Source of the DNA: an uncultured Clostridia bacterium
Lineage (GTDB): Bacteria > Bacillota > Clostridia > Christensenellales > QALW01
Direction: 5' to 3'
Length of the DNA stretch: 64,000 nucleotides
Assembly (NCBI GenBank): GCA_934434555.1
Contig: CAKRZX010000002.1
Location: 22,376-86,375, forward strand
Part shown: positions 14,665 to 52,999 of the stretch, one piece after another
How positions within the stretch are numbered: position 1 is the first letter of the stretch
Layout of the letters: every line of letters begins with the position of its first letter
Notes under the pieces: generated by a model
Told to the model about the DNA's origin: nothing
Database searches by the model: none
What the model saw: only the letters and a program-made list of their open reading frames with translations
Made by a program: the position numbers and the translations under genes

Positions 14665-14680
14665 AATGCTATATAATTTA

Positions 14681-35315: not shown

Positions 35316-35384
35316 AGTTCTCCTTTTGCAAAATAGTTATATCTGCAATATAATTATATTGACTTTTGCTGCTTATACAGGTAA

Positions 35385-38390
<3,006 letters not shown>

Positions 38391-38396
38391 ATGAGC

Positions 38397-38428
38397 CGGC
38401 GGAGAAACTTCCGCCGCTTCTTTTTTTC
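38397..38428 (+). terminator. Rho-independent terminator after lacZ
   Basis: The stem cggcgga/tccgccg is followed by a ttcttttttt tail. Confidence 0.7.
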
Positions 38429-38494
38429 TTGACGATAAAGGGCGTATGTATTATAATTTATGCAGGCAAATTTTTTCTTCCGTAGGGGGACTTG

Positions 38495-39430
38495 ATGAAT
38501 TTACAGCATATGAAATACGCCGTGGAGGTTGCGGATACAAAAAGCATAAACAAGGCGGCTGAAAAACTGTTTGTAGGGCAATCGAATTTAAGCCGGGCGA
38601 TAAAAGAACTTGAAGCGGGATTGGGAACCGCTGTTTTTGACCGCAGTGCAAAGGGAATGTCATTAACTCCCGACGGCGAAGTGTTTATACAGTACGCACG
38701 CGCCGTACTTAAACAGGTGGACGATATCGAACATCTGTTTTCAAAAGGCGAAACGATAAAAAAACGGTTTTCGGTTTCAGCGCCCCGTGCAAGCTATGTT
38801 GCAAAGGCTTTTGCCGAGTTCTCGCTGCTTATAGGAAAAGACGAAAAGGCGGAGCTTTTTTATCGCGAAACCAACTCAATGCGAACGATAAAAAACATTT
38901 TGGAGGACGACTATAAGTTAGGAATTTTGCGTTATGCGGAAAATTACGACAGATACTATAAATCGATGATGGACGAAAAGGGGCTTGAATACGAACTTGT
39001 TACGCAGTTTTCGTATATGCTTGTAATGAATGAAAAAAGCCCCGTTGCCAATAAAGAAAACATATGTTTTGAGGATTTGGAGCCGCTTACGGAAATCGCC
39101 CACGCTGACCCGTATGTGCCGTCGCTTCCGTTTGCCGAGGTAAAAAAAGAAGAATTACCCGATAATTCCGACAGGCGCATATTCGTTTTTGAGCGGAGCA
39201 GCCAGTTTGAACTTTTAAGCAGGAATCCCGAAACATATATGTGGGTTTCGCCGCTGCCGAAAGAATATCTGACGCGGTACGGACTTATTCAGCGCACCTG
39301 CGGCGAAAACAGCCGTGTTTACAGAGATATGCTTATCCATAAAAAAGAATACACTCTTACAAATCTTGATAAAATGTTTATTGAGCAGCTTGTAAAAACC
39401 AAGCGGGATGTTTTCGGGAGGGAAGAATAA
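38495..39430 (+). CDS. LysR family transcriptional regulator
   Basis: The N-terminal HTH is MNLQHMKYAVEVADTKSINKAAEKLFVGQSNLSRAIKELEAGLG. Confidence 0.88.
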   Translation: MNLQHMKYAVEVADTKSINKAAEKLFVGQSNLSRAIKELEAGLGTAVFDRSAKGMSLTPDGEVFIQYARAVLKQVDDIEHLFSKGETIKKRFSVSAPRASYVAKAFAEFSLLIGKDEKAELFYRETNSMRTIKNILEDDYKLGILRYAENYDRYYKSMMDEKGLEYELVTQFSYMLVMNEKSPVANKENICFEDLEPLTEIAHADPYVPSLPFAEVKKEELPDNSDRRIFVFERSSQFELLSRNPETYMWVSPLPKEYLTRYGLIQRTCGENSRVYRDMLIHKKEYTLTNLDKMFIEQLVKTKRDVFGREE

Positions 39431-39972
39431 TGAAATATATGATAGTTTCCGATATTCACGGAAGCGGTTTCTACGCACAAAAGGCAGTTGATAAATTTTT
39501 TGAGGAAAAGTGCGGCAGAATGATTCTTTTGGGAGATATTCTATACCACGGACCGAGAAACGAACTGCCGAAAGAATACGACCCGAAACGCGTTGCAGAA
39601 CTTTTTAACGGAATAAAGGAAAATATTCTTGCCGTTCGCGGAAACTGCGACGCGGAAGTTGACCAGATGGTGCTTGAATTTCCTATCCGCGCGGACTATG
39701 CTTTGCTTGACGCGGGCGAAAAACTTGTTTTCATCACTCACGGGCATCTTTTTAACGAAGATAATCTTCCGAATATAAAAAAAGGCGATATTCTGCTTCA
39801 CGGGCACACTCACGTTCCGGTACTGAAAGATACGGGAAAATGCATTATTATGAATCCCGGAAGTGCGGCACTGCCGAAAGAAAACAGTTATAACGGCTAT
39901 ATGACCTTTGAAAACGGACTCTTTTTGTGGAAGGACTTTGACGAAAATATAAAAAACAGTTTTGAAATATAA
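39430..39972 (+). CDS. YfcE/MJ0936-family metallophosphoesterase
   Basis: VSDIHGS, GDILYHGPRN, GNCD, THGH and GHTH motifs are present. Confidence 0.85.
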   Translation: MKYMIVSDIHGSGFYAQKAVDKFFEEKCGRMILLGDILYHGPRNELPKEYDPKRVAELFNGIKENILAVRGNCDAEVDQMVLEFPIRADYALLDAGEKLVFITHGHLFNEDNLPNIKKGDILLHGHTHVPVLKDTGKCIIMNPGSAALPKENSYNGYMTFENGLFLWKDFDENIKNSFEI

Positions 39973-40130
39973 AATTTTACCTTGAAAAATTCATAAAAAC
40001 CTCTTAAAAAAAGTGCATTCGCTCACGGCTATATCGATAAATGCAATACCGATATCCGAAAATCGCAATTCCCCCAAAACGGAAAATCTGATATAATCAC
40101 GGTACAGATAATCGAAGGGGGAAAAGACCG

Positions 40131-40718
40131 TTGAAAGAAAACGGAATATCGCGTGCAACGCTGGGAAGATTGCCGGAGTATCTTAACTTTCTTAAATCAA
40201 CAGGCGAAAAAAACGTCTCGGCAACCGCGGTTGCCAAAGGGCTTGATTTAGGCGAAGTTCAGGTACGCAAGGACCTTTCGGCAGTGTGCGGAATGGGCAG
40301 ACCTAAAACGGGCTATGTTAAAGAAGAACTGATACAAAGCATAGAAAAACTGCTTAAAGGCAATACCGGAGCCGTAATAATAGGCGCGGGAAAACTGGGC
40401 AGAGCGCTGCTTGACTATTCGGGCTTTAACGGTTACGGCATAAATATGCTGGCGGCATTTGACCTTACTGCGGACGAAAAATCGGACAAACCGGTTTTAT
40501 CCGTAAACGAACTTGATACGTTTTTAAGAAAAAACGATGTTAAGATCGGCGTGATTGTGGTACCGAAAAGTGCGGCGCAGGAAGTATGCGACAGGCTTGT
40601 TCGGGGCGGCGTATTTCTTATTTGGTGCTTTGCGCCGTGTAAACTTAAAGTGCCGGAAAACGTTACGGTACAGTATGAAGATCTTGCACTTTCCCTTGCA
40701 CATCTGAGAATGCATTAA
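40131..40718 (+). CDS. rex: Redox-sensing transcriptional repressor Rex
   Basis: ISRATLGRLPEYLNFL (winged helix) and the Rossmann motif VIIGAGKLGRALLDY are present. TTG start after gaaggggg. Confidence 0.9.
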   Translation: MKENGISRATLGRLPEYLNFLKSTGEKNVSATAVAKGLDLGEVQVRKDLSAVCGMGRPKTGYVKEELIQSIEKLLKGNTGAVIIGAGKLGRALLDYSGFNGYGINMLAAFDLTADEKSDKPVLSVNELDTFLRKNDVKIGVIVVPKSAAQEVCDRLVRGGVFLIWCFAPCKLKVPENVTVQYEDLALSLAHLRMH

Positions 40719-40780
40719 AAGGAACGCAGACACTGCATTTTTGCTGTACGTTCGGCGTTTGAAATTTTAGGAGGTAAAAC

Positions 40781-43492
40781 ATGAACATTGACGGAAGAAA
40801 AACGGTTGACAGTGTTGAGGCACTTGAAGCAACCCTTAAAAGCGTAAAGGCGGCGCAGGAAAAGTATTCGCATTTTACGCAGGAACAGGTTGATAAAATT
40901 TTCTTTGCCGCGGCATCGGCGGCGGATAAGGCGAGAATTCCGCTTGCAAAAATGGCGGTTGAAGAAACCGGTATGGGCATAGTTGAAGATAAAGTTATCA
41001 AGAACAATTATGCATCGGAATATATTTATAACGCTTATAAGGATACAAAAACCTGCGGCGTAATTGAAGAGGACAAGGCGTTCGGATTAAAGAAAATTGC
41101 CGAGCCGATTGGTGTTGTTGCGGCGGTTATACCCACAACCAACCCCACGTCAACGGCAATATTCAAGTGCCTGCTTGCACTTAAAACCCGCAACGCAATA
41201 ATTATCAGTCCTCACCCCAGAGCAAAGGCATCAACAGCGGCGGCGGCAAAAACCGTGCTTGACGCGGCGGTAAAAGCGGGCGCTCCCGAGGGAATTATCG
41301 AATGGATTGACGTTCCCTCACTTGAAATGACCAACACTCTTATGAAAGAGGCAGACATAATCCTTGCTACCGGCGGTCCGGGAATGGTTAAGGCCGCTTA
41401 TTCTTCCGGAAAACCCGCTCTCGGCGTAGGCGCAGGCAACACTCCCGCTATTATCGACGAAAGCGCAAACATCGTGCTTGCGGTAAACTCAATTATCCAT
41501 TCAAAAACGTTTGATAACGGTATGATCTGCGCGTCAGAACAGTCGGTAATCGTTCATAAAAATGTTTACGATGCGGTAAAACACGAATTTGCACTGCGCG
41601 GCTGCTATTTCCTTAAAGGAAACGAAATTGACAAGGTAAGAAAGACCATTCTTATAAACGGCGCACTTAACGCAAAAATCGTAGGGCAGTCGGCCTGCAC
41701 CATAGCGGCGCTGGCGGGCGTTGCCGTTCCCGAGGGAACAAAAATCCTTATCGGCGAAGTTGAAAGCGTTGATATCTCGGAAGAGTTTGCGCACGAAAAA
41801 CTTTCACCGGTTCTGGCAATGTACAGGGCGGAAGATATTTCCGATGCGTTTGACAAGGCGGAACACCTTATTGCCGACGGCGGTTACGGACATACTTCAT
41901 CAATATATATTAACGAGCAGACCGAGAAAGATAAACTCGACGAGTTTACTTCACGTATGAAAACCTGCCGTATACTTGTAAATACTCCTTCTTCACACGG
42001 TGGACTGGGCGACCTTTACAACTTCAAACTTACCCCGTCACTTACATTGGGCTGCGGCTCGTGGGGCGGAAACTCGGTAAGCGAAAACGTAGGTGTAAAG
42101 CATTTGCTTAATATTAAAACCGTTGCGGAGAGGAGAGAGAATATGCTGTGGTTCAGAGCACCTGAAAAGGTATATATAAAGAAAGGGTGCCTGCCCGTGG
42201 CACTTGATGAGTTAAAGCACGTAATGGGCAAAAAACGTGCGTTTATAGTAACGGATAATTTCCTGTATCATAACGGCTACACAAAGCCGATTACCGATAA
42301 ACTTGACGAAATGGGTATAGTTCACGCCACGTTCGGCGATGTTGCGCCCGACCCCACGCTTCAATGTGCCCTTAAAGGCGTTGAACAGATGCACGCATTC
42401 GCACCCGATACCATAATCGCCCTCGGCGGCGGCTCGGCAATGGACGCGGCAAAGATTATGTGGGTGCTTTACGAACACCCCGAAGCGGACTTCATGGATA
42501 TGGCCATGCGTTTTATGGATATCCGCAAGCGTGTGTATACTTTCCACAAAATGGGCGAAAAAGCGTATTTTATAGCGATTCCCACTTCCGCAGGTACGGG
42601 CAGTGAGGTTACGCCTTTTGCGGTTATTACCGATGAGACAAGCGGAATAAAATATCCCCTTGCCGACTATCAGTTGCTGCCCAATATGGCTATAATCGAT
42701 ACCGATTTCCATATGAGCGCACCCAGGGGACTTACCGCCGCATCGGGCATCGATGCAGTTACCCACGCACTGGAAGCATATGCATCCCTTATGGCGACCG
42801 ACTATACCGACGGTCTTGCAAAACAGGCGCTTAAAGTTATATTTGAATATCTTCCCCGCGCTTACGACAACGGCGCAACCGATGTTGAAGCAAGGGAGAA
42901 AATGGCTAACGCCGCCACAATGGCAGGTATGGCTTTTGCCAACGCTTTCCTGGGCGTATGCCACTCAATGGCGCATAAACTGGGCGCGTTCCATCATTTG
43001 CCCCACGGCATTGCAAATGCGCTTATGATTGAGCAGGTTCTGCGCTTTAATGCCGCGGAAGCACCCGCAAAAATGGGTACGTTCCCGCAGTACGACCACC
43101 CGCACACACTTCACCGCTATGCGGAAGTTGCCGACAGCCTTAATTTGGGCGGCAATACCGATAAGGAAAAACTTGAAAACCTTATTTCGGCGGTAAATGC
43201 CCTGAAAGAGCGTGTGGGAATCAAGAAGACAATCGCCGATTACAATATTGACGAAAAGGACTTCCTTGAAAGACTTGACGCGATGACCGAACAGGCGTTT
43301 GACGACCAGTGCACAGCCGCAAATCCCCGCTATCCGCTTATGAGCGAAATCAGGCAGATGTATCTTAACGCTTACTACGGCAAGAGCGGGTTTGAAGAAA
43401 AGCCCATGCCCGGCGTTGAGCAGACCGAAACAGATGTACACGATTTTAAGCAGGCGTACCGCAGAGCGGAAAACGGACAGAGCAAGGCATAA
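40781..43492 (+). CDS. adhE: Bifunctional acetaldehyde-CoA/alcohol dehydrogenase
   Basis: The 903-aa protein has an ALDH domain with a catalytic-Cys region (FDNGMICASEQ) and a C-terminal iron-ADH domain (GGGSAMDAAK...HSMAHKLG). Confidence 0.96.
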   Translation: MNIDGRKTVDSVEALEATLKSVKAAQEKYSHFTQEQVDKIFFAAASAADKARIPLAKMAVEETGMGIVEDKVIKNNYASEYIYNAYKDTKTCGVIEEDKAFGLKKIAEPIGVVAAVIPTTNPTSTAIFKCLLALKTRNAIIISPHPRAKASTAAAAKTVLDAAVKAGAPEGIIEWIDVPSLEMTNTLMKEADIILATGGPGMVKAAYSSGKPALGVGAGNTPAIIDESANIVLAVNSIIHSKTFDNGMICASEQSVIVHKNVYDAVKHEFALRGCYFLKGNEIDKVRKTILINGALNAKIVGQSACTIAALAGVAVPEGTKILIGEVESVDISEEFAHEKLSPVLAMYRAEDISDAFDKAEHLIADGGYGHTSSIYINEQTEKDKLDEFTSRMKTCRILVNTPSSHGGLGDLYNFKLTPSLTLGCGSWGGNSVSENVGVKHLLNIKTVAERRENMLWFRAPEKVYIKKGCLPVALDELKHVMGKKRAFIVTDNFLYHNGYTKPITDKLDEMGIVHATFGDVAPDPTLQCALKGVEQMHAFAPDTIIALGGGSAMDAAKIMWVLYEHPEADFMDMAMRFMDIRKRVYTFHKMGEKAYFIAIPTSAGTGSEVTPFAVITDETSGIKYPLADYQLLPNMAIIDTDFHMSAPRGLTAASGIDAVTHALEAYASLMATDYTDGLAKQALKVIFEYLPRAYDNGATDVEAREKMANAATMAGMAFANAFLGVCHSMAHKLGAFHHLPHGIANALMIEQVLRFNAAEAPAKMGTFPQYDHPHTLHRYAEVADSLNLGGNTDKEKLENLISAVNALKERVGIKKTIADYNIDEKDFLERLDAMTEQAFDDQCTAANPRYPLMSEIRQMYLNAYYGKSGFEEKPMPGVEQTETDVHDFKQAYRRAENGQSKA

Positions 43493-43504
43493 GGAGGAAA
43501 AATT

Positions 43505-44254
43505 ATGAACCTTGACAGAATAATTGCAGTAAGAAATAATAAAACAGTATACAGGGACGGCGACCGCTGCCTTAAAGTGTTCAGCCCCGATTATTCAAAG
43601 GCGGACGTTCTTAACGAGGCGCTTAATCAGGCGCGGGTTGAAACAACGGGACTGAATATTCCAAAGGTTCTTGAAGTAACGGTGCTTGACGGCAAATGGA
43701 CGATAGTTTCCGAATTTATAAAGGGCAAAACTCTTGCACAGCTTATGCAGGAGAACCCCGACAAAAAACAGGAGTATCTTGAAAGATTCGTTAAAATTCA
43801 ACTTGAAATGCATTCAAAGACCTGCCCCGGACTTAACAAACTCAAAGACAAGATGAATGCAAAAATCACGCAGACCGACCTTTCGGCAACGGTAAGATAT
43901 GACCTGCATACCCGCTTGGAGGGTATGCCCAAGCACAACAAACTCTGCCACGGCGATTATAACCCCTCAAACGTTATAATCACCGATGACGGAAAGGCGT
44001 ATATAATCGACTGGTCACACGCCACACAGGGTAACGCTTCTGCCGACGCGGCACGCACTTACCTCAGGTTCTGGCTTGACGGAGATGGAGATGGTGCAAA
44101 AGAGTATCTTAAACTGTTTTGCGAAAAGAGCGATACTGCGGTACAGTATGTGCAAAAGTGGATGCCGATTGTTGCCGCGTCGCAGACGGTTAAGGGTAAC
44201 GCTCACGAGCGTGAATTCCTTAATTCATGGATAGATGTTGTTGATTACGAGTAA
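43505..44254 (+). CDS. Protein-kinase-like phosphotransferase (APH/choline kinase fold); putative Ser/Thr kinase of the HydS module
   Basis: The catalytic loop LCHGDYNPSNVII and the IIDWSHA motif are present, and it sits between adhE and hydS. Confidence 0.78.
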   Translation: MNLDRIIAVRNNKTVYRDGDRCLKVFSPDYSKADVLNEALNQARVETTGLNIPKVLEVTVLDGKWTIVSEFIKGKTLAQLMQENPDKKQEYLERFVKIQLEMHSKTCPGLNKLKDKMNAKITQTDLSATVRYDLHTRLEGMPKHNKLCHGDYNPSNVIITDDGKAYIIDWSHATQGNASADAARTYLRFWLDGDGDGAKEYLKLFCEKSDTAVQYVQKWMPIVAASQTVKGNAHEREFLNSWIDVVDYE

Positions 44255-44266
44255 GGAGGAAAAAAA

Positions 44267-44506
44267 GTGAAAGTAACCGTTTGTATAGGTTCGTCCTGCC
44301 ACATCAAAGGTTCACGCCAGGTGGTGGAGCAGTTGCAGGAACTTATTAAAAAGAACAGCCTTTCGGATAAGGTTGAACTTGCCGGCACTTTCTGCATGGG
44401 CGAATGCCAAAAAGGCGTCTGTGTAAAGGTAGACGATGAGTTCTTTTCGGTAAATCCCGAAACTACGGAAGAGTTCTTTAACAAAAACGTACTTGCGAGG
44501 GTATAA
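44267..44506 (+). CDS. Thioredoxin-like [2Fe-2S] ferredoxin (NuoE-like), copy 1
   Basis: It has a Cx4C...Cx3C pattern (CIGSSC ... CMGEC). GTG start after aaggagg. Confidence 0.75.
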   Translation: MKVTVCIGSSCHIKGSRQVVEQLQELIKKNSLSDKVELAGTFCMGECQKGVCVKVDDEFFSVNPETTEEFFNKNVLARV

Positions 44507-44509
44507 AAA

Positions 44510-44761
44510 GTGGAAGTAAAAGTATGCGTCGGTTCATCGTGCTACCTTAAAGGCGCGGAAAGAATCGCCGCCGCGTGCGACGAAAAAATCAAAGCAAACG
44601 GGCTTGAAAATACGGTAAGTCTCTCGGGCAGTTTCTGCACCGGGAGATGCAACCGCGAGGGTGTTACGGTTACGGTGGACGGTGAAGTGTTCACCGGGCT
44701 TACGCCTGAAAAGTTCGATGCGTTTTTTACCGAAAAAATTCTTAACCGTGTAAAGGGGTAA
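44510..44761 (+). CDS. Thioredoxin-like [2Fe-2S] ferredoxin (NuoE-like), copy 2
   Basis: It is a paralog of the previous ORF (CVGSSC ... CTGRC). GTG start. Confidence 0.75.
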   Translation: MEVKVCVGSSCYLKGAERIAAACDEKIKANGLENTVSLSGSFCTGRCNREGVTVTVDGEVFTGLTPEKFDAFFTEKILNRVKG

Positions 44762-44768
44762 AAGAGAG

Positions 44769-46442
44769 ATGGAATGTCTTACTCTTAAAAAGTCCAATTG
44801 CAAAAACTGCTATAAGTGCATACGCCACTGTCCCGTAAAATCAATCAGGTTTTCGGGCAATCAGGCATACATAATAGGCGATGAGTGTATTCTTTGCGGA
44901 CACTGTTTTGTTGTTTGCCCGCAAAATGCAAAGCAGATAACGGACGAGACGGAAAAGGTAAAGGTGCTTTTGCAAAGCGGCGACCCGGTTGTGGTAAGCC
45001 TTGCGCCGTCGTTTGTGGCAAACTACCACGGCGTGGGCATAGGTTCAATGCGCGAAGCAATTAAAAAACTTGGCTTTTACGACGTTGAGGAAACCGCAAT
45101 AGGCGCAACAATTGTAAAAAATCAGTACGAGAAGATGGCGGAGGAAGGGAACAGCGATATTATTATCACGTCCTGCTGCCACACGGTAAATCTGCTTATA
45201 CAGAAGTATTATCCCAAGGAACTGCCGTATCTTGCAGACGTACTTTCGCCTATGCAGGCACACTGCCGCGATATAAAACAGCGCATACCCAATGCAAAAA
45301 CCGTGTTTATCGGTCCATGCGTAGCAAAAAAAGACGAGGCACAGCGATATGAGGGTATTGTTGATGCAGTACTTACGTTTGACGAGCTTACCGCGTGGCT
45401 TAAAGAAAAGAATATTGAGCCTGAAACTGAGACGGATTTTGATGAGCACAGCCGCGCAAGGTTTTTCCCCACAACGGGCGGCATACTTAAAACACTTAAA
45501 AAAGAAAATCCCGATTACACCTATATGGCGGTTGACGGCATAGAAAACTGCATTGAGGTGCTTAAAGACATTGAAAGCGGAAACGTGCATAAATGCTTTA
45601 TTGAGATGTCCTCCTGCGTGGGCAGCTGCGTCGGCGGACCGGTAATGGAAAAGTTCCACCGTTCACCCGTACAGGACTATTCTGCGGTTGCACACTTTGC
45701 GGGCAAGGAAGATTTTGAAGTAAAGCAGCCTGATTCGCTTGCGCTGGGAAAAAGTTTTTCGGTAATAGACAGAAACGTTCAGATGCCGACGGAGTACGAA
45801 ATACAGGAAATCCTGCACCGCATGGGCAAAATGAAGCCTTCGGACGAACTTAACTGCGGGTCATGCGGTTATAACACCTGCCGCGAAAAGGCAATAGCCA
45901 TTTTTCAGGGTAAGGCGGAAATATCAATGTGCCTGCCATACTTAAAGGATAAGGCGGAAAGTTTTTCGGACAATATCGTTCACAACACGCCTAACGGAAT
46001 TATCCTGCTGAACGAAAAACTTGAAGTACAGCAGATAAACAAGGCGGCGCTTAAAATTATGAACCTGCGTGCCGCGTCGGACGTTTTGGGCGACGGCGTA
46101 GTGCGTATACTTGACCCTAAGGATTTTTTAAGCGTTTTAAGCAGCGGACGCAGTATTCACGAAAAGAGGGTATTCCTTGCCGAGTACGGCAAATATGTGG
46201 AGGAAACCGTTATTTATGACCGGGAATACAGGCTTCTTATATGTATTATGCGCGATGTTACCGAGGAAGAAACCCAAAAAGAAAAGAAAGAGAATATTAC
46301 AAGGCAGACAGTTGAGATTGCAGATAAAGTTGTAGATAAACAGATGCGCATTGTACAGGAAATTGCTTCCCTTTTGGGTGAAACTGCGGCAGAAACAAAA
46401 ATTGCACTTTCCAAGCTCAAGGAGTCGGTAGAAAATGAATAA
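44769..46442 (+). CDS. hydS: Sensory [FeFe]-hydrogenase-like protein with a C-terminal PAS domain (HydS type)
   Basis: The N-terminus has 2x[4Fe-4S] motifs (CKNCYKCIRHCP, CILCGHCFVVCP). H-cluster-like motifs are ITSCCH, GPCVAKKDE and EMSSCVGSCVGGP. An extra CGSCGYNTC motif is present, followed by a PAS-like segment (NTPNGIILLNEKLEVQQINKAALKIMN). Confidence 0.85.
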   Translation: MECLTLKKSNCKNCYKCIRHCPVKSIRFSGNQAYIIGDECILCGHCFVVCPQNAKQITDETEKVKVLLQSGDPVVVSLAPSFVANYHGVGIGSMREAIKKLGFYDVEETAIGATIVKNQYEKMAEEGNSDIIITSCCHTVNLLIQKYYPKELPYLADVLSPMQAHCRDIKQRIPNAKTVFIGPCVAKKDEAQRYEGIVDAVLTFDELTAWLKEKNIEPETETDFDEHSRARFFPTTGGILKTLKKENPDYTYMAVDGIENCIEVLKDIESGNVHKCFIEMSSCVGSCVGGPVMEKFHRSPVQDYSAVAHFAGKEDFEVKQPDSLALGKSFSVIDRNVQMPTEYEIQEILHRMGKMKPSDELNCGSCGYNTCREKAIAIFQGKAEISMCLPYLKDKAESFSDNIVHNTPNGIILLNEKLEVQQINKAALKIMNLRAASDVLGDGVVRILDPKDFLSVLSSGRSIHEKRVFLAEYGKYVEETVIYDREYRLLICIMRDVTEEETQKEKKENITRQTVEIADKVVDKQMRIVQEIASLLGETAAETKIALSKLKESVENE

Positions 46443-47607
46443 CCTGTGCTGTGAAATAGGATGGAAAAGCATAAATCACGCAGGGGAGCAGCTTTGCGGA
46501 GACCATGTGGATATTGTTGAGCAGGGAGAGGATTCATCGGTTATAGTGCTTGCCGACGGTCTCGGAAGCGGGGTAAAGGCAAGCATACTGTCAACCCTTA
46601 CATCAAAGATAATTTCCACAATGATGGCAGAGGGACTGCCGCTGGAAGAATGCGTTTCAACAATAGCGGCAACGTTGCCCATTTGCTCGGTGCGGGGTGT
46701 TGCGTATTCAACTTTTACAATAATTCACCTGATAAATAACGAAACTGCCGAAATTATACAGTACGATAATCCGAAAGTTATACTTATACGGGATTATGCC
46801 CTGTGTGATTATCAAAAAGACGAACTTAATATCGGCGGGAAAAAAATATATAAATCCGCAGTACAGCTTCGCGAGGGCGATGTTTTTGTGGCAATGAGTG
46901 ACGGTTGCCCTCATGCCGGAATGGGTACAGCGTATAATTTCGGATGGAAATGGGAAGATATTGCCGATTTTATGGCGACGGTTGTTCCTGCCGGATATAC
47001 GGCAAAAACTCTTTCGGCAATGCTTGTTGACGAGTGCGACAAACTTTACGGGTTTGCTCCCGGAGACGATGCCACAGCGTGCGTTGTCAAGGTGCGCAAG
47101 CGCCAACCTATGAACATTCTGTTCGGCCCGCCGCGTTTCCGTGATGACTGTGACAGAATGATGTCACTGTTCTTTTCAAAAGAAGGCAAGCATATAGTGT
47201 GCGGGGGAACAACGTCGTCAATAGCGGCAAAATATCTGGGCAAAACCGTTAAAGCCACGCTGAGTTTTGAAAAAAGCGATGTTCCGCCCATTGCGGAAAT
47301 CGAGGGCGTAGACCTTACCACCGAGGGTGTTATAACAATAAGTAAAGTTATTGAGTACGCCAAAGACGCACTGGGAAAAAACGAACTTTACGAGCAATGG
47401 GGCTACGGACATGACGGCGCGTCGCTTATCTGCCGGATGCTTTTTGAAGAGGCGACGGACATCAACTTCTTCGTGGGCAGAGCGGTAAACCCCGCCCATC
47501 AGAACCCCGATTTGCCCATAAATTTCAACATAAAAATGAATCTTGTAAGCGAACTTTCGGACTGCCTTAAAAAAATGGGAAAACGGATAAAGGTAAGTTA
47601 CTTCTAA
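46435..47607 (+). CDS. PP2C/SpoIIE-family protein phosphatase
   Basis: CGDHVDIV...VIVLADGLGSGVKASI...VAMSDG is present. The start overlaps the hydS stop. Confidence 0.8.
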   Translation: MNNLCCEIGWKSINHAGEQLCGDHVDIVEQGEDSSVIVLADGLGSGVKASILSTLTSKIISTMMAEGLPLEECVSTIAATLPICSVRGVAYSTFTIIHLINNETAEIIQYDNPKVILIRDYALCDYQKDELNIGGKKIYKSAVQLREGDVFVAMSDGCPHAGMGTAYNFGWKWEDIADFMATVVPAGYTAKTLSAMLVDECDKLYGFAPGDDATACVVKVRKRQPMNILFGPPRFRDDCDRMMSLFFSKEGKHIVCGGTTSSIAAKYLGKTVKATLSFEKSDVPPIAEIEGVDLTTEGVITISKVIEYAKDALGKNELYEQWGYGHDGASLICRMLFEEATDINFFVGRAVNPAHQNPDLPINFNIKMNLVSELSDCLKKMGKRIKVSYF

Positions 47608-47617
47608 GGAGGACAAA

Positions 47618-49045
47618 ATGCATAAATTCGATACCAAGGTACAGTACCTTAAATATAAAGTATTACGGGAAGTTGCAAGGCTTGCGTGGAACGACACATT
47701 GCTTGACAACGTGCTTGATATCCCCAAAACGATAGTTCCGGGCAAAACGCCTACAATGCGCTGCTGTGTCTATAAAGAACGGGCGATTCTTGCCGAGCGC
47801 GTTAAACTTGCAATGGGCGGAGATAAGGAAAGACATAATGTTATAGAGGTAATTGACATTGCCTGTGACGAATGTCCCATGGGCGGATATGAAGTTACCA
47901 ATGCCTGCCGCGGCTGTCTTGCACACCGGTGCGAGGATGCCTGCCGTTTCGGCGCAATTACGTTTGACGAAAACCACGTTGCGCATATAGATAAAACAAA
48001 GTGTAAGGAATGCGGCTGCTGTGCGAGAGTCTGCCCGTATACGGCTATAATTTCGCGCCGCCGCCCCTGTGAAAATGCCTGCAAAATCAAGGCGATAAGC
48101 ATGAACGAGGACAAGTCTGCGGCAATTGACGACTCAAAATGCATATCCTGCGGCGCCTGCGTATATCAGTGTCCGTTCGGCGCGATTACCGATAAGTCAT
48201 TTATCCTTGACGCAATAGATATTCTTAAAAAGAGTGAGAACAATAAAAAATACAAGGTGTTCGCCGTTGTTGCGCCGTCGATTTCAAGTCAGTTTACATA
48301 TGCAAAACTGGGTCAGGTAATAACGGGACTGAAAGAGCTAGGTTTCCACACGGTTATCGAGGCGGCTTTGGGCGCGGATATGGTTGCGTTCTCCGAATCA
48401 AAAGAGCTTACCGAAAAGGGATTTTTGACAAGTTCCTGCTGTCCGGCGTTTGTAAGTTTTGTTGAAAAGAACTTCCCGCAGTTAAAGGAACATATTTCAC
48501 ACAATCTTTCGCCTATGGGTGCAATAGCGAAGTACATCAAGGAACACGAAGCACCATGCAAGGTTATTTTCATAGGTCCCTGTACTGCCAAAAAGGCGGA
48601 AGTTCAGAAAGAATCCGTTAAACCCTATGTGGACGTTGCAATGACGTTTGAAGAATTGCAGGCGCTGTTTGACAGCCGGGATATCGACATTACGACGCTT
48701 TCCGAGGGCGTGCTTGACAATGCGTCCTACTACGGCAGAATTTTTGCCCGTTCCGGCGGACTTTCCGACGCGGTTCAGGAAGCGCTTAAAGAACAGGGCT
48801 ATGACGATTTCACCCTTAAACCCTGTGCCTGTGACGGAATAGAAGCCTGCCGCGTGGCACTGCTTAAAAAGAGCAAGAATCTTCTTGACGCTAACTTTAT
48901 TGAGGGTATGGCTTGCGTAGGCGGCTGTATAGGCGGCGCCGGATGTCTGACTCACGGCGAGAAGAACAAAGCCGAGGTTGACAAGTACGGCAGAGAGGCG
49001 TTTGAAAAGACAATCAGCGACGCAATCCGTCCGTTGGAAAAATAA
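47618..49045 (+). CDS. hydA: [FeFe]-hydrogenase catalytic subunit, monomeric (HydA2-like)
   Basis: It has multiple Fe-S Cys clusters (CKECGCCARVCP, CISCGACVYQCP). H-cluster motifs are TSSCCP, GPCTAKKAE and EGMACVGGCIGG. Confidence 0.88.
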   Translation: MHKFDTKVQYLKYKVLREVARLAWNDTLLDNVLDIPKTIVPGKTPTMRCCVYKERAILAERVKLAMGGDKERHNVIEVIDIACDECPMGGYEVTNACRGCLAHRCEDACRFGAITFDENHVAHIDKTKCKECGCCARVCPYTAIISRRRPCENACKIKAISMNEDKSAAIDDSKCISCGACVYQCPFGAITDKSFILDAIDILKKSENNKKYKVFAVVAPSISSQFTYAKLGQVITGLKELGFHTVIEAALGADMVAFSESKELTEKGFLTSSCCPAFVSFVEKNFPQLKEHISHNLSPMGAIAKYIKEHEAPCKVIFIGPCTAKKAEVQKESVKPYVDVAMTFEELQALFDSRDIDITTLSEGVLDNASYYGRIFARSGGLSDAVQEALKEQGYDDFTLKPCACDGIEACRVALLKKSKNLLDANFIEGMACVGGCIGGAGCLTHGEKNKAEVDKYGREAFEKTISDAIRPLEK

Positions 49046-49053
49046 ATTCTTCG

Positions 49054-49080
49054 GAGCAGTTATTATACTGCTCTTTTTTT
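49054..49080 (+). terminator. Rho-independent terminator after hydA
   Basis: The stem gagcagt/actgctc is followed by T7. Confidence 0.75.
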
Positions 49081-49091
49081 GCAATTCTTTG

Positions 49092-49120
49092 TTGACTGAC
49101 TGCGCAAATTATGGTAAACT
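49092..49120 (+). promoter_or_regulatory. Sigma-A-like promoter upstream of the cobalamin riboswitch
   Basis: The layout is TTGACT (49092-49097), a 17-nt spacer ending in TGG, then TAAACT (49115-49120). Confidence 0.5.
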
Positions 49121-49145
49121 AACACGGAAAATAAAATATTTTGAA

Positions 49146-49300
49146 AGATACGGTTTGAAAAGTTGTACGCTGAGTAGATGTAAAAGGAAATTCGGTTTGA
49201 ATCCGAAACAACCGCCATTACTGTATTTGACGATTAGGGGATTACTCTCTTTTTTAGGGGAGGTTCCGTGTTCATAAGTCAGGATACCTGCCTATCTTTC
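49146..49300 (+). promoter_or_regulatory. Cobalamin riboswitch aptamer
   Basis: The core is AAAAGGAAAttCGGTttGAATCCGaaaCAaCCGCCattACTGTA (49181-49224). The B12-box AGTCAGGATACCTGCC lies at 49276-49291. Confidence 0.8.
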
Positions 49301-49370
49301 GGACAAACACTGCTTTGGTGTGAAGAGTGCTGCCGCTTTTTTGCTCTTTGCCGCGCAGAATAAGTTGCAG

Positions 49371-49400
49371 AAACTCTTCAAAAAAAGAAGAGTTTTTTTA
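49371..49400 (+). terminator. Riboswitch expression-platform terminator
   Basis: The stem aaactcttc/gaagagttt has an A7 loop and a T-run, 40 nt upstream of the first gene. Confidence 0.7.
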
Positions 49401-49439
49401 TGCTTGGCAGGCAGATAAAAAACGGAAAGGTAGAAAAAA

Positions 49440-50549
49440 ATGAAAAAAATCTTGTCACTGATTATCGCTCTTGCGCTTGTGTTTTCGGCGCTCTCAACCG
49501 TAACGGTATTTGCGGAGGAAGAAGATATTTCCATCACAATTTCCGTTGAGGGTGCTACAATCGGGCAGGGATTTTACGTTGAACCCACCGTTTATACGCT
49601 TTCTGAAATCAACGACCTGCTTTCGCAAGAGGACTACGGACCGTACACCGCCGAAACGCTTACTGCGGGCATGGCAACTCTTGCTATGTTTATCGACTAC
49701 GGTATAGAATACCGAATAACAGGCGATTGGGAAAGCAGTGTTTATATTGCTGAAATTAAAGGCATAGACACAGGTAAATTAAATATTCCCGATGTTATCA
49801 GCAAAAACGGAGGACCGTCAAATGATGATAATCAAGGAAATGAAGATGAATGGCTGGGCGAATTCGATTACAGTTTTATGTCCGGCTGGATGATTACGGT
49901 TGACCACCATATGATTGGCGTGGGCTGCGGCAGTTACAATGCTGCACAGGCACGCGCCGAGGGTTCGACTTTCGGCGACGGCTCAGTTATCCGTTGGCAG
50001 TTTACACTCTGGGGTTACGGACTTGATTTAGGTGTGGATAACGGCTGGGGAATGGGCGGACCCTATTACACCGCCGCAAATAAATGCGACATTTACCGCA
50101 AGTACGCAGAACTTAAACAGCGGGGATTCTTTAATACGCACCCCGAAGCAAAAGCCGCTGCGCTTGCCGTTATGGAAAATCTTACGGCAACACAGGCACA
50201 GGCGGACGGCGCACTTTCGGCACTTGAAAAAGCCGAGGAAGACGAAAAACTTCAAAACAAACAGGTTGAAGCAGTAACGGCGCAGATTGGTGCACTGGGC
50301 AATATCACTCTTGCAAAACAGGACGCGGTTAAAAAGGCAAGAGAGGAGTATGACGCACTGACTGACGCGCAGAAAGCACTTGTAAAAAATGCTGACGTTT
50401 TGATTGCGGCGGAAGCAAAGATAAAGGAGCTTAAAGCGGAACTTAACAATAAACCCGAAGATTCGGGCGATGAAATAATGTTCGTTCCCGCGGCATTGCT
50501 TGTGCTTGCATCCTGCGCCCTTGTTGTAAGAAAAAAACGCAAAGGTTGA
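49440..50549 (+). CDS. Surface-anchored DUF4430 (transcobalamin C-terminal-like) protein with a coiled-coil stalk and C-terminal TM
   Basis: It has a signal peptide and a DUF4430-like core (FMSGWMITVDHHMIGVGCGSY...GDGSVIRWQFT). An Ala/Gln/Lys-rich helical region and a C-terminal FVPAALLVLASCALVVRKKRKG anchor follow. Confidence 0.7.
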   Translation: MKKILSLIIALALVFSALSTVTVFAEEEDISITISVEGATIGQGFYVEPTVYTLSEINDLLSQEDYGPYTAETLTAGMATLAMFIDYGIEYRITGDWESSVYIAEIKGIDTGKLNIPDVISKNGGPSNDDNQGNEDEWLGEFDYSFMSGWMITVDHHMIGVGCGSYNAAQARAEGSTFGDGSVIRWQFTLWGYGLDLGVDNGWGMGGPYYTAANKCDIYRKYAELKQRGFFNTHPEAKAAALAVMENLTATQAQADGALSALEKAEEDEKLQNKQVEAVTAQIGALGNITLAKQDAVKKAREEYDALTDAQKALVKNADVLIAAEAKIKELKAELNNKPEDSGDEIMFVPAALLVLASCALVVRKKRKG

Positions 50550-50556
50550 TTAAAAA

Positions 50557-50598
50557 ACGTATGAAGGGAGCGGCAACCTCTTCATACGTCCCTTTTTT
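50557..50598 (+). terminator. Intrinsic terminator inside the B12-regulated cluster
   Basis: A perfect 10-bp stem acgtatgaag/cttcatacgt is followed by ccc and T6. Confidence 0.65.
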
Positions 50599-50612
50599 AT
50601 AGGCGGGATAAA

Positions 50613-52451: not shown

Positions 52452-52999
52452 AAAAAGATATTTTGGCAATTTTCGGTATTGTGCTAATAATTGCTCTGCT
52501 TATAAGCGGAACGAATATTCAGTCCGTAGACGAATATTATCTTACCCATATTGACGACATTACACCGGAGAGCGAAACGGTGAAGATTTCCATTGTCTGC
52601 ACAACCGTGTTTGACAATATCAATATGCTTGATATTGCGCTTAAAGATGGAGATTATTTCCCCGAAGACGGGATAATTCTGCCCGAAACGGAGTATGTTC
52701 TGCGGGAGGGTGATACGGTGTTTGATATCCTTGACAGGGCGGTAAGGTACAACAAAATTCAAATGGAATATCAGGGTGCGGAACATAACAGTTACAAAAG
52801 CGCGTATATCCGCGGCATCAGTTATCTTTATGAATTTTCCTGCGGTCCGCTTTCAGGGTGGATGTATAAAGTTGACGGGGAATATCCGTCGTATGGGTGT
52901 TCAAAGTATATTCTGCACGACGGACAGGTTATAGAATGGGTTTATACCTGTAATTTAGGTAAGGACGTAGGCTGCGACTGGGAGGGACTTGAAGAATGA
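52448..52999 (+). CDS. DUF4430 (transcobalamin C-terminal-like) domain protein, membrane-anchored
   Basis: LSGWMYKVDGEYPSYGCSKYILHDGQVIEWVYT is present, along with an N-terminal TM. The TTG start overlaps the upstream stop. Confidence 0.8.
   Translation: MKKDILAIFGIVLIIALLISGTNIQSVDEYYLTHIDDITPESETVKISIVCTTVFDNINMLDIALKDGDYFPEDGIILPETEYVLREGDTVFDILDRAVRYNKIQMEYQGAEHNSYKSAYIRGISYLYEFSCGPLSGWMYKVDGEYPSYGCSKYILHDGQVIEWVYTCNLGKDVGCDWEGLEE

What the first reader, a model, noticed from the sequence alone, without database searches (positions are those of the whole stretch)
40131..49045. Complete rex-adhE-kinase-Fd-Fd-hydS-PP2C-hydA cluster: a putative H2-sensing regulatory module
All eight genes are co-directional with gaps of at most 62 nt.
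- HydS has H-cluster-like motifs with deviations (TSCCH instead of TSCCP, GPC instead of MPC), an extra CGSCGYNTC motif and a PAS domain.
- A PP2C phosphatase overlaps its stop codon.
- A kinase-fold protein lies upstream.

This matches what I recall for Ruminococcus albus 7 (Zheng et al., J Bacteriol 2014), where HydS is co-transcribed with the ferredoxin-dependent HydA2 and linked to AdhE regulation. It also matches the 'phosphatase-linked' group C [FeFe]-hydrogenases. The signalling mechanism (which protein is phosphorylated, and what the two small ferredoxins do) remains unresolved, so this is a well-preserved example rather than a new system.
Basis: partly seen in the sequence, partly recalled or inferred. 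Interest (0 to 1): 0.55.

Follow-up and report, generated by a model that had tools for sequence, protein, structure and literature searches.

The report
Hydrogen-sensing ethanol/hydrogenase operon, known type
This is an intact copy, in an uncultured gut or rumen Clostridia bacterium, of the eight-gene operon already described in Ruminococcus albus 7, in which a sensor-type hydrogenase and a phosphatase are thought to switch ethanol formation and a second hydrogenase on when hydrogen builds up; it is an ordinary member of a known kind, though how the signal is passed on remains unknown.

Summary
Eight co-directional genes occupy 40131-49045: rex, adhE, an APH-type kinase, two thioredoxin-like [2Fe-2S] ferredoxins, hydS, a SpoIIE-type PP2C and hydA. 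Gaps are at most 62 nt, and hydS overlaps the PP2C gene by 8 nt.

The order matches R. albus 7 Rumal_3400-3407, which is 90-130-fold down in H2-scavenging co-culture (PMC6776011). The HydS and HydA H-domains are 72% and 73% identical to Rumal_3405 (HydDB group C3) and Rumal_3407 (group B). The core fd-hydS-pp2c-hydA equals hfsABCD of Thermoanaerobacterium.

The module is very common: 8000+ close homologues, and the core recurs in most of 80 GTDB genomes.

Additions and corrections:
- A LysR regulator lies directly upstream and is a conserved neighbour.
- A conserved operator (TATATCGATA-N5-ATACCGATAT-N9-GCAATTCCC) sits at about -70 to -31 of the inferred rex promoter.
- This copy has no canonical Rex box, unlike many relatives.
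- The kinase is APH/choline-kinase-like, not Hanks-type.
- GPC also occurs in the catalytic HydA.
- The PP2C carries an unannotated, highly conserved C-terminal domain.
- HydS ends in a near-invariant GETxAETK helix.

Verdict: a new member of a known kind, of moderate-low interest. The phospho-target remains unknown.

The parts
38495..39430 (+). LysR-family regulator (CidR/GltC/AlsR-like). It has its own sigma-70-like promoter (TTGACG-17-TATAAT, 38429-38457), just after the terminator at 38397-38416. It is a candidate third regulator of the cluster.
   Evidence: PF00126 HTH_1, E=2.7e-19. Best NCBIfam matches are CidR, GltC and AlsR, all below cut-off. Promoter and terminator. An ortholog (38-70% id) lies co-directionally upstream of the cluster in 26 of 80 related loci, including loci without rex or adhE.
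39430..39972 (+). YfcE-family phosphodiesterase, start overlapping the lysR stop. Probably a passenger.
   Evidence: NF006988, 222 bits (cut-off 117). Found at this position in only 3 related loci.
40031..40073 (+). Conserved operator: box 1 ATATCGATA (40031-40039), box 2 TACCGATAT (40047-40055), and box 3 GCAATTCCC (40065-40073) at the -35 position.
   Evidence: This is the best of two matches in the 64-kb window (2 vs 3 mismatches; the other is at 18007-18031), with 0 expected in 100 shuffles. A PWM trained on 8 other loci scores it 40.0 bits, against a background 99.9th percentile of 19.5. The same element lies about 90-145 nt upstream of the first cluster gene in 18 related loci; 14 of them are aligned. 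Degenerate versions occur in lysR-adhE loci.
40089..40097 (+). Extended -10 (TGaTATAAT) of the inferred rex-operon promoter. The -35 region is weak (TTCCCC). No Rex operator overlaps it.
   Evidence: Read directly from the sequence. Aligned promoters of relatives place their -10 here. The Rex consensus searches found nothing in the promoter region (39973-40130) at up to 3 mismatches. Relatives carry TGTTAAAATATTAACA at this spot.
40131..40718 (+). rex: a Rex-family NADH/NAD+-sensing repressor paralog (195 aa, GAGKLG Rossmann motif).
   Evidence: NF003994, 195 bits (cut-off 130); PF06971 + PF02629. Same position as Rumal_3400.
40781..43492 (+). adhE: bifunctional acetaldehyde-CoA/alcohol dehydrogenase (903 aa).
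   Evidence: NF010378, 1386 bits (cut-off 951). Same position as Rumal_3401.
43505..44254 (+). Small (249 aa) APH/choline-kinase-like phosphotransferase with intact catalytic residues. Substrate unknown.
   Evidence: PF01636, 57.4 bits. Pkinase scores only 18.7 (cut-off 31.7). The nearest solved structures are choline kinase LicA and APH(4). K24, E38, H149-G150-D151, N156 and D169 are at least 95% conserved in 42 orthologs. Same position as Rumal_3402, 'aminoglycoside phosphotransferase'.
44267..44506 (+). fd1: thioredoxin-like [2Fe-2S] ferredoxin (79 aa), equivalent to the C-terminal half of NuoE/HydC. It occupies the position of HfsA (not compared by sequence).
   Evidence: PF01257, E=1.6e-8. 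C6, C11, C43 and C47 are conserved in 125 homologs. Present in 74 of 80 loci.
44510..44761 (+). fd2: paralog of fd1 (83 aa, 44% identical), a tandem duplicate.
   Evidence: PF01257, E=2.6e-9. Pairwise comparison. Two copies in 49 loci, one in 25.
44769..46442 (+). hydS: group C3 sensory-type [FeFe]-hydrogenase. Architecture: 2x[4Fe-4S], H-domain, CX2CX4CX16C cluster, PAS, conserved C-terminal helix.
   Evidence: Domains. Motif statistics. 72% identity to Rumal_3405. Tree. Tail conservation.
46435..47607 (+). SpoIIE-type PP2C phosphatase (aa 1-222) fused to an unannotated, highly conserved alpha/beta domain (aa ~225-390). Translationally coupled to hydS. Occupies the position of HfsC.
   Evidence: PF07228, E=2e-13. 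SpoIIE structures are the best PDB matches. D23, D41, D156, D211 and D212 are invariant. The 8-nt overlap occurs in 78/78 loci. The C-terminal domain has no Pfam or PDB match.
47618..49045 (+). hydA: group B (HydA2/HfsD-type) [FeFe]-hydrogenase with intact H-cluster motifs (TSSCCP, GPC, EGMACVGGC).
   Evidence: TIGR04105, 563 bits (cut-off 450). 73% identity to Rumal_3407. Tree.
49053..49081 (+). Intrinsic terminator (8-bp stem plus T-run) that closes the operon.
   Evidence: The next unit starts with a cobalamin riboswitch at 49133-49309.

Best explanation
The region is an orthologous copy of the H2-responsive rex-adhE-kinase-fd-fd-hydS-pp2c-hydA2 operon of Ruminococcus albus 7. Its core (fd-hydS-pp2c-hydA) has the same gene order as hfsABCD of Thermoanaerobacterium.

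Shown here:
- Gene content, order and coupling.
- HydS is a group C3 sensor-type enzyme and HydA is a group B enzyme.
- The PP2C, the kinase and the ferredoxins keep their catalytic or ligand residues.
- The promoter carries a conserved upstream operator and lacks a Rex box.

Taken from the literature:
- The R. albus operon is about 100-fold higher at high H2 than when H2 is scavenged.
- Deleting the sensor (hfsB) in Thermoanaerobacterium raises adhE expression and ethanol yield, but only if hfsC and hfsD are intact.

Inferred mechanism:
1. HydS, poised by its two dedicated [2Fe-2S] ferredoxins, reports H2 pressure through its PAS domain and conserved C-terminal helix to the stoichiometrically co-made PP2C.
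2. Without H2, HydS holds the phosphatase off. A target phosphorylated by the APH-like kinase (or another kinase) stays phosphorylated, and the operon stays silent.
3. With H2, the PP2C is released and dephosphorylates the target.
4. Transcription then starts from the activator-dependent promoter at about 40030-40100, probably through the adjacent LysR-type regulator bound to the dual ATCGAT boxes.
5. Because sensor, phosphatase, kinase and Rex are encoded in the operon they control, the loop is self-reinforcing and switch-like.
6. The output is AdhE (NADH to ethanol) and the ferredoxin-dependent HydA. Together these let fermentation continue when the bifurcating hydrogenase is thermodynamically blocked by H2.
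For: - Gene calls and domains. An independent gene call on a 99%-identical contig agrees.
- Same eight-gene order in R. albus 7, with 90-130-fold regulation there: PMC6776011 main text and Table S7.
- 72% and 73% identity to Rumal_3405 (C3) and Rumal_3407 (B). Tree with HydDB-labelled references.
- Sensor signature at the CpI M353 and M497 positions (Gly, Ser), with all cluster-ligand Cys invariant: compared with PMC10055695.
- HydS is below cut-off for all catalytic-group models.
- The hydS-pp2c 8-nt overlap occurs in 78/78 loci, and the core recurs in most of 80 genomes.
- hfs genetics (hfsA or hfsB deletion raises adhE and ethanol; requires hfsC and hfsD): PMC5707799 and PMC11837493.
- PP2C metal-binding Asp residues are invariant. 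Kinase K/E/HGD/N/D residues are conserved.
- Operator conservation and promoter architecture.
- LysR adjacency.
Against: - No experiment exists on this organism.
- The phospho-target is unknown. The kinase's nearest relatives are small-molecule kinases, and its gene is absent from about half of the related loci.
- No STAS or other classical SpoIIE-family substrate is encoded in the cluster.
- In the group D sensor TamHydS, the C-terminal [4Fe-4S] cluster is not reduced by H2 (PMC13104023). Redox relay through that cluster to PAS is therefore doubtful.
- The operator also occurs in 5 loci without an adjacent lysR, so LysR as its binder is not proven.
- This copy lacks the Rex box that relatives have, which leaves the role of the operon's own Rex unclear.
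- The direction of control (H2 releases the PP2C) combines data from two different organisms.
Confidence: 0.72

Rival explanations
1. HydS with its ferredoxins senses the redox state of the ferredoxin/NADH pool rather than H2 as such. The H-cluster merely equilibrates with H2, and the PAS/PP2C output follows intracellular electron pressure, with Rex adding the NADH signal.
For: - Two dedicated [2Fe-2S] ferredoxins and an N-terminal 2x[4Fe-4S] relay are conserved next to the sensor.
- A Rex paralog sits in the operon.
- Thermoanaerobacterium authors describe HfsB as possibly responding to intracellular redox potential (PMC11837493).
- The C-terminal cluster of TamHydS does not respond to H2.
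Against: - In R. albus the same fermentation shift is produced by changing H2 alone (PMC6776011, citing Zheng 2014).
- All four H-cluster Cys ligands are invariant in a family that is otherwise only 33-61% identical. This argues that H2 chemistry itself is under selection.
Confidence: 0.2
2. The four core proteins form one multisubunit catalytic hydrogenase (the original 'Hfs hydrogenase' view). HydS and the ferredoxins would be electron-transfer subunits of HydA, and the PP2C would have no regulatory link.
For: - Tight co-transcription and coupling of fd, hydS, pp2c and hydA in most genomes.
- Deleting the whole hfs operon lowers hydrogenase activity and H2 production (PMC5707799).
- The C3 H-domain is closer to group B than to C1/C2.
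Against: - Deleting hfsB alone increases hydrogenase activity and raises adhE expression.
- HydS has the sensor-type substitutions (PMC10055695) that in the characterised TmHydS accompany much lower activity than prototypical enzymes. It also carries a PAS domain.
- About 15 related loci have hydS-pp2c without an adjacent hydA.
Confidence: 0.07
3. The APH-like kinase is a small-molecule kinase and is not the antagonist of the PP2C. The PP2C (and perhaps its unknown C-terminal domain) acts on a target phosphorylated by a kinase encoded elsewhere, or responds to a phosphorylated metabolite.
For: - The best solved relatives are choline kinase and hygromycin kinase. Pkinase is below cut-off.
- The kinase gene is missing from about half of the loci, while the PP2C is present in 78 of 80.
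- The HydS tail motif is equally conserved with and without a kinase gene.
- The PP2C C-terminal domain has enzyme-like invariant polar motifs (GGTT, TEG, NPAHQ) and a weak SIS-like hit (E=0.086).
Against: - When present, the kinase always sits between the regulators or adhE and the ferredoxins, including loci without adhE.
- It is co-regulated about 114-fold with the rest in R. albus.
- From my own knowledge: APH/choline-kinase-fold enzymes such as YihE/RdoA and the spore-coat kinases do phosphorylate proteins.
Confidence: 0.3

Closest known systems
Ruminococcus albus 7 Rumal_3400-3407 (rex-adhE-APH kinase-2 small proteins-hydS-spoIIE-hydA2). Described by Zheng et al. 2014, J Bacteriol (not readable here) and Greening et al. 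2019, ISME J (PMC6776011).
   Same: Same eight genes in the same order. H-domains are 72% (HydS) and 73% (HydA2) identical. Both have the SCCH and GPC motifs in HydS. Both sensors are group C3 and both catalytic enzymes are group B.
   Different: The organism differs: the nearest GTDB species is only 80% identical in HydS. Whether R. albus has the upstream LysR gene and the dual ATCGAT operator could not be checked. Expression data exist only for R. albus.
hfsABCD operon of Thermoanaerobacterium saccharolyticum/thermosaccharolyticum (Shaw 2009; PMC5707799; PMC11837493).
   Same: The core order is the same: small Fe-S protein, PAS-containing sensory hydrogenase, SpoIIE-type phosphatase, ferredoxin-linked hydrogenase. 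There is a regulatory link to adhE.
   Different: As the cited papers describe it, hfs has four genes: one HfsA rather than two ferredoxins, and adhE, rex and the kinase are not named as part of it. No hfs sequences were compared here; the equivalence rests on those papers' own statement of homology to R. albus HydS and HydA2.
[quoted passage not shown]
   Same: Gly at the CpI M353 position and Ser at the M497 position, as in TmHydS (G177, S267). N-terminal 2x[4Fe-4S]. A C-terminal four-Cys cluster. A PAS domain, as in TmHydS.
   Different: This clade keeps the proton-relay Cys (C136; TmHydS has Ala, and only 17% of sensory sequences have Cys) and has His in place of the Pro that follows. No sequence comparison with TmHydS or TamHydS was run.
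HoxBC-HoxJ-HoxA H2-sensing system of Cupriavidus necator (regulatory [NiFe]-hydrogenase plus histidine kinase and response regulator).
   Same: Same logic: a low-activity hydrogenase with a PAS-mediated link to a phospho-signalling enzyme controls hydrogenase genes (described in PMC5707799).
   Different: Unrelated proteins: [NiFe] versus [FeFe] hydrogenase, and His-Asp phosphorelay versus a Ser/Thr-type PP2C. The output here is fermentation genes. It is an analogy only.
SpoIIE/RsbU/RsbP partner-switching modules.
   Same: The phosphatase belongs to the same PP2C subfamily (PF07228; best PDB hits are SpoIIE structures). As with RsbP, it is associated with a PAS sensor.
   Different: There is no STAS substrate and no GHKL anti-sigma kinase in the cluster. 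The PAS domain is on a separate protein. The phosphatase has no N-terminal regulatory domain and instead carries an unknown C-terminal domain.

Membership tests
Group C3 (phosphatase-linked) sensory [FeFe]-hydrogenase | H-domain with all four H-cluster Cys ligands | tested here: met
   C137, C184, C283 and C287 are invariant in 58 diverse homologs. PF02906, E=4e-52.
Group C3 (phosphatase-linked) sensory [FeFe]-hydrogenase | Sensor-type substitutions at the CpI M353 and M497 positions | tested here: met
   G182 and S281. Family frequencies are G 50 / S 8, and S 25 / N 21. This matches PMC10055695.
Group C3 (phosphatase-linked) sensory [FeFe]-hydrogenase | C-terminal four-Cys [4Fe-4S] site followed by a PAS domain | tested here: met
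   C363, C366, C371 and C388 are invariant. PF04060, E=9e-11. For the whole protein, PAS PF00989 scores 21.8, just under its 22.6 cut-off. For the isolated region it scores 24.3, above it.
Group C3 (phosphatase-linked) sensory [FeFe]-hydrogenase | Groups with HydDB C3 references rather than A, B, C1 or C2 | tested here: met
   72% identical to Rumal_3405 (C3), versus at most 36% to 16 labelled references of other groups. The two pair in an NJ tree. Only one C3 reference was available.
Group C3 (phosphatase-linked) sensory [FeFe]-hydrogenase | Adjacent PP2C phosphatase gene | tested here: met
   8-nt overlap with a SpoIIE-family gene, here and in 78/78 related loci.
Group C3 (phosphatase-linked) sensory [FeFe]-hydrogenase | H2-dependent signalling | not testable with these tools
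   Needs biochemistry or genetics. It has not been shown for any group C enzyme (PMC13104023).
R. albus 7-type eight-gene H2-responsive operon | Gene content and order rex-adhE-APH kinase-fd-fd-hydS-pp2c-hydA | tested here: met
   Window ORFs compared with the Rumal_3400-3407 annotations in PMC6776011 Table S7.
R. albus 7-type eight-gene H2-responsive operon | About 100-fold repression when H2 is scavenged | not testable with these tools
   Expression data exist only for R. albus 7.
Group B [FeFe]-hydrogenase (HydA2/HfsD type) | Scores above the curated family cut-off and keeps the L1-L3 H-cluster motifs | tested here: met
   TIGR04105, 563 bits (cut-off 450). TSSCCP, GPCTAKKAE and EGMACVGGC are present. 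73% identical to Rumal_3407, and inside the B clade. Gly at M353 as in CpIII (PMC10055695).
Rex redox-sensing repressor regulon | Protein passes the Rex family model | tested here: met
   NF003994, 195 bits (cut-off 130).
Rex redox-sensing repressor regulon | Canonical Rex operator (TTGTTAA-N4-TTAACAA or TTGTGAA-N4-TTCACAA) in the controlled promoter | tested here: not met
   No site in the promoter region at up to 3 mismatches, and window-wide counts are at chance level. Relatives do carry TGTTAAAATATTAACA over the -10.
Hanks-type Ser/Thr protein kinase | Passes the Pkinase model | tested here: not met
   PF00069, 18.7 bits (cut-off 31.7). The protein passes APH PF01636 instead, and its nearest structures are small-molecule kinases.
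SpoIIE/RsbU partner-switching module | PP2C of the SpoIIE family with its metal-binding Asp residues | tested here: met
   PF07228, E=2e-13. D23, D41, D156, D211 and D212 are invariant.
SpoIIE/RsbU partner-switching module | STAS-domain substrate and GHKL anti-sigma kinase encoded alongside | tested here: not met
   None among the 16 proteins scanned from 34536 to 53856. The rest of the window was not scanned.
LysR-type activator with RBS/ABS promoter architecture | LTTR gene adjacent to a target promoter with a dyad near -65 and a site near -35 | tested here: inconclusive
   The architecture fits, with boxes centred at about -68, -53 and -35 relative to the inferred start. Every lysR-bearing locus has at least a degenerate form of the element. 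However, 5 loci have the element without an adjacent lysR, the box spacing is not the classic T-N11-A, and no binding data exist.

The most novel reading that the evidence does not exclude
The operon may have a signalling layer that has not been described, made of three parts.

1. An activator-dependent promoter is controlled through a conserved dual ATATCGATAT operator by the adjacent CidR/AlsR-like LysR regulator. This gives the H2 switch a third, metabolite-type input. In this lineage it replaces the Rex box.
2. The near-invariant C-terminal HydS helix ([15 protein letters not shown], with Thr/Ser in 55-56 of 58 family members) is the docking or phospho-acceptor site for the coupled PP2C.
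3. The unannotated 165-residue C-terminal domain of the PP2C (invariant GGTT, TEG, NPAHQ) is a new ligand-binding or catalytic domain that gates the phosphatase.
Probability: 0.25. Interest if true: 0.6.

Novelty: new member of a known kind. Interest (0 to 1): 0.35.

Why it matters
How fermenting gut and rumen bacteria sense H2 decides whether they make acetate plus H2 or ethanol, so it bears on methane emission and on engineered ethanol yields. The sensor module is abundant in gut and rumen Clostridia, yet nobody knows what the phosphatase acts on.

This copy adds no new principle. The comparison across 80 genomes does give concrete handles:
- a conserved operator and a neighbouring LysR regulator that can be tested for binding;
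- an invariant HydS tail with conserved Thr residues;
- a conserved unknown domain on the phosphatase.

Tried and rejected
1. Canonical Rex operators. Both consensus forms were searched at up to 3 mismatches. Counts were at chance level and no site lay in the promoter. Rex control of this promoter through a canonical box is rejected.

2. Full-length R. albus HydS. I searched with the 167-aa fragment from the paper's supplement, hoping to fetch the R. albus locus. Only short fragments came back. Whether R. albus has the upstream LysR gene and the operator therefore stays untested. Rumal_3397-3399 and 3408 are not in the stored supplement, and Zheng 2014 is not held.

3. Fold of the PP2C C-terminal domain.
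- Pfam and a PDB profile search gave nothing significant. The best hit was the phosphoheptose isomerase 3trj at E=0.086.
No fold search was run on it.

4. HydS C-terminal tail. It has no Pfam or PDB relative.

5. Assigning the operator to Rex or to LysR by co-occurrence. Both correlate. LysR fits somewhat better: every lysR locus has at least a degenerate element, whereas 4 rex loci have none. The result is not decisive.

6. Test of whether the HydS tail motif tracks the presence of the kinase gene. It does not. A kinase-specific role for the tail is not supported.

7. Rfam scan for a leader RNA upstream of rex. None was found.


Full report
**Observation**

- rex 40131-40718
- adhE 40781-43492
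- kinase 43505-44254
- fd1 44267-44506
- fd2 44510-44761
- hydS 44769-46442
- PP2C 46435-47607
- hydA 47618-49045

The gaps are 62, 12, 12, 3 and 7 nt, then an 8-nt overlap, then 10 nt. An independent gene call on a 99%-identical public contig gives the same protein lengths for the six genes that lie wholly on it, kinase to hydA.

Family models confirm each assignment:
- Rex: NF003994, 195 bits against a cut-off of 130.
- AdhE: NF010378, 1386 against 951.
- Kinase: APH, PF01636.
- Two ferredoxins: thioredoxin-like [2Fe-2S], PF01257.
- HydS: Fer4, Fe_hyd_lg_C, PF04060 and PAS.
- PP2C: SpoIIE-type, PF07228.
- HydA: TIGR04105 'monomeric [FeFe] hydrogenase B1', 563 against 450.

**Match to the known system**

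The main text describes 'a putative eight-gene cluster' that is 111-fold down-regulated in co-culture with an H2 consumer.

Supplementary Table S7 lists Rumal_3400 to 3407. Their annotations are CoA-binding domain protein, iron-containing alcohol dehydrogenase, aminoglycoside phosphotransferase, two hypothetical proteins, PAS/PAC sensor, stage II sporulation protein E, and hydrogenase large-subunit domain protein. All are 90-130-fold down. That is the order found here.

The same supplement gives H-domain fragments with HydDB labels. The window HydS is 72% identical to Rumal_3405 (FeFe group C3). The window HydA is 73% identical to Rumal_3407 (FeFe group B).

I built a neighbour-joining tree with 17 labelled fragments from groups A1-A4, B, C1, C2 and C3. 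The window proteins pair with exactly these two references. The C3 pair sits next to group B rather than with C1/C2.

The paper's main text calls HydA2 'group A1', but its own supplement says group B. TIGR04105 and the tree agree with group B.

The core fd-hydS-pp2c-hydA has the same gene order as the hfsABCD operon of Thermoanaerobacterium. Its authors state the homology to R. albus HydS and HydA2 (PMC11837493 and PMC5707799).

**HydS as a sensor-type enzyme**

I aligned the window HydS with 57 full-length family representatives that are 32-61% identical to it.
- The eight N-terminal Cys, the four H-cluster Cys (C137, C184, C283, C287) and the four C-terminal Cys (C363, C366, C371, C388) are invariant, apart from C43 (conserved in at least 90%).
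- The CpI M353 position is Gly in 50 sequences and Ser in 8.
- The CpI M497 position is Ser in 25 and Asn in 21.

These are the substitutions described for sensory enzymes in PMC10055695.

The proton-relay Cys (CpI C299) is kept here (C136). That holds for 23 of the 58 sequences. The literature figure for sensory hydrogenases is 17%.

The (S/T)SCCH motif occurs in 74 of 80 related loci and in R. albus 7. It is therefore a clade trait.

GPC is not diagnostic of a sensor. The catalytic HydA of this cluster also has it, as does CpIII.

HydS scores far below the cut-offs of every catalytic-group model.

**How common the cluster is**

The word-indexed search saturated at 8000 HydS homologues, with the listed ones 78-99% identical. 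The exhaustive search found 962 clusters (at 50% identity) with E below 1e-30. PP2C homologues also saturated at 8000.

Across the 80 best GTDB species genomes, all uncultured Clostridia-type MAGs 60-80% identical in HydS, I found:
- The hydS-pp2c pair in 78 loci, with the identical 8-nt overlap in all 78.
- A ferredoxin gene upstream in 74: two copies in 49 and one in 25.
- hydA downstream in about 63.
- The kinase in about 44.
- adhE in 27 and rex in 25.

The window therefore carries the fullest version of a modular, widespread locus.

1. LysR gene. A LysR-family regulator lies directly upstream at 38495-39430 and is co-directional. Its best matches are CidR, GltC and AlsR. It has its own strong sigma-70-like promoter. 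Its stop overlaps the start of a YfcE-type phosphodiesterase gene. Orthologs of this LysR sit upstream of the cluster in 26 related loci. These include loci in which it directly precedes adhE, the kinase or fd1, with no rex.

2. Conserved operator. The 158-nt region before rex reads TATATCGATAaatgcAATACCGATATccgaaaatcGCAATTCCC, then 15 nt, then TGaTATAAT. This is one of two matches in the window, and the better one, with 0 expected by chance. A matrix trained on eight other loci scores it 40.0 bits, against a background 99.9th percentile of 19.5. The same element lies about 90-145 nt before the first cluster gene in 18 related loci. Assuming a start about 7 nt after the -10, the boxes centre near -68, -53 and -35, and the -35 hexamer is poor. 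This is the layout of an activator-dependent promoter.

3. Missing Rex box. Loci in which lysR directly precedes adhE have a degenerate form of the operator plus a canonical Rex box (TGTTAAAATATTAACA) across the -10. This window and its closest relative L001 have no Rex box.

4. Boundaries. A terminator at 49053-49074 closes the unit. A cobalamin riboswitch at 49133-49309 opens the next one.

**The phospho-signalling parts**

The PP2C keeps the metal-binding Asp residues (D23, D41, D156, D211, D212 are invariant). Its best solved relatives are SpoIIE structures. It has no N-terminal regulatory domain.

Residues 225-390 form a second domain that is as conserved as the phosphatase itself. Invariant motifs include GGTT, TEG and NPAHQ. 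It has no Pfam or PDB relative. The best hit is a SIS-type isomerase at E=0.086. The AlphaFold2 model was too poor there (pLDDT below 50) to search by fold, though it predicts alternating strands and helices.

The kinase keeps K24, E38, HGD149-151, N156 and D169. It passes the APH model, not the protein-kinase model, and its nearest structures are choline and hygromycin kinases. 'Ser/Thr kinase' is therefore an assumption.

HydS ends in a helix, [15 protein letters not shown](T/S)xAE(T/S)K. In this otherwise divergent family it is among the most conserved segments, alongside the cluster-binding motifs. It has no known relative. It is equally conserved in loci with and without the kinase gene. 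This points to the universally present PP2C as its partner.

**Most likely mechanism**

The shown facts are the anatomy described above.

Two facts come from the literature:
- The R. albus operon is on at high H2 and about 100-fold lower when H2 is removed.
- Deleting the sensor in Thermoanaerobacterium raises adhE expression and ethanol yield, provided the phosphatase and HfsD are intact.

Putting these together, I infer that H2-free HydS restrains the PP2C and that H2 releases it. The phosphatase then removes a phosphate, placed by the APH-like kinase or by another kinase, from a target that controls the promoter.

The adjacent LysR protein on the dual-box operator is my best candidate for the DNA-binding end. 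I put that at roughly even odds.

Because the regulators lie inside the operon they control, the loop would be self-amplifying. That fits the 100-fold switch.

The products, AdhE and a ferredoxin-dependent hydrogenase, re-oxidise NADH and ferredoxin separately when H2 blocks the bifurcating enzyme.

Weak points of the model:
- The target is unknown.
- The kinase is dispensable in many genomes.
- The TamHydS result shows that the C-terminal cluster does not respond to H2.
- The role of the operon's own Rex is unexplained in a promoter that has lost the Rex box.

**Rival explanations**

- HydS may be a ferredoxin-pool or redox sensor rather than an H2 sensor. This is plausible given the dedicated ferredoxins, but H2 alone shifts R. 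albus fermentation.
- The core may be a purely catalytic multisubunit Hfs hydrogenase. This is contradicted by higher hydrogenase activity after hfsB deletion and by loci that lack hydA.
- The kinase may be a small-molecule kinase unrelated to the PP2C. This stays open.

**Verdict**

This is a well-preserved, complete member of a known and very widespread operon type.

The comparative by-products are leads rather than findings:
- the LysR neighbour;
- the conserved operator;
- loss of the Rex box;
- the HydS tail;
- the unknown PP2C domain.

Interest is moderate-low.

Noticed in passing
window 49133-49309 (+): Cobalamin riboswitch (RF00174, 50.1 bits) immediately after the hydA terminator. It heads a downstream unit with DUF4430, a prenyltransferase-like protein, CbiQ, and ABC/ECF transporter genes (49440-57884).
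   Followed up: partly
window 14676-14760 (+): c-di-GMP-I riboswitch (RF01051, 59.9 bits) upstream of the gene that starts at about 15231.
   Followed up: no
window 18007-18031 (+): A second, weaker match (3 mismatches) to the dual ATATCGATAT operator pattern, inside a coding region (ORF 17988-18680). Shuffles gave 0 expected matches, so it may not be chance.
   Followed up: no
window 34536-38390: An AraC-family regulator (34536-35315, - strand) is divergent from a GH2 beta-galactosidase (35424-38390, +). That gene ends at a strong terminator (38397-38416) just before the lysR promoter.
   Followed up: partly
L039 833-872 and 4803-4842: In one relative the dual-box operator is present twice, on either side of a ~4-kb insert (containing Ns) between lysR and rex. 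This suggests an insertion into the promoter region with duplication of the target.
   Followed up: no
window 44769-46442, HydS residues 520-551: The C-terminal helix [28 protein letters not shown] is near-invariant across a family that is otherwise 33-61% identical. It has Thr/Ser at two positions in 55-56 of 58 sequences, and no Pfam or PDB relative.
   Followed up: partly
window 47107-47604, PP2C residues 225-390: Unannotated conserved alpha/beta domain fused to the phosphatase, with invariant GGTT, TEG and NPAHQ motifs. Only a weak SIS-like hint (3trj, E=0.086).
   Followed up: partly
PMC6776011 main text versus supplementary file 2: The paper's text calls R. albus HydA2 a group A1 hydrogenase, while its own HydDB output labels Rumal_3407 group B. 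The window ortholog is clearly group B.
   Followed up: yes
tree (HydS residues 125-296 versus labelled references): The group C3 H-domain is closer to group B (32-36% identity) than to C1 or C2 (24-29%). This hints that the C3 sensor arose from a group B-like enzyme. Only one C3 and one C2 reference were used.
   Followed up: no
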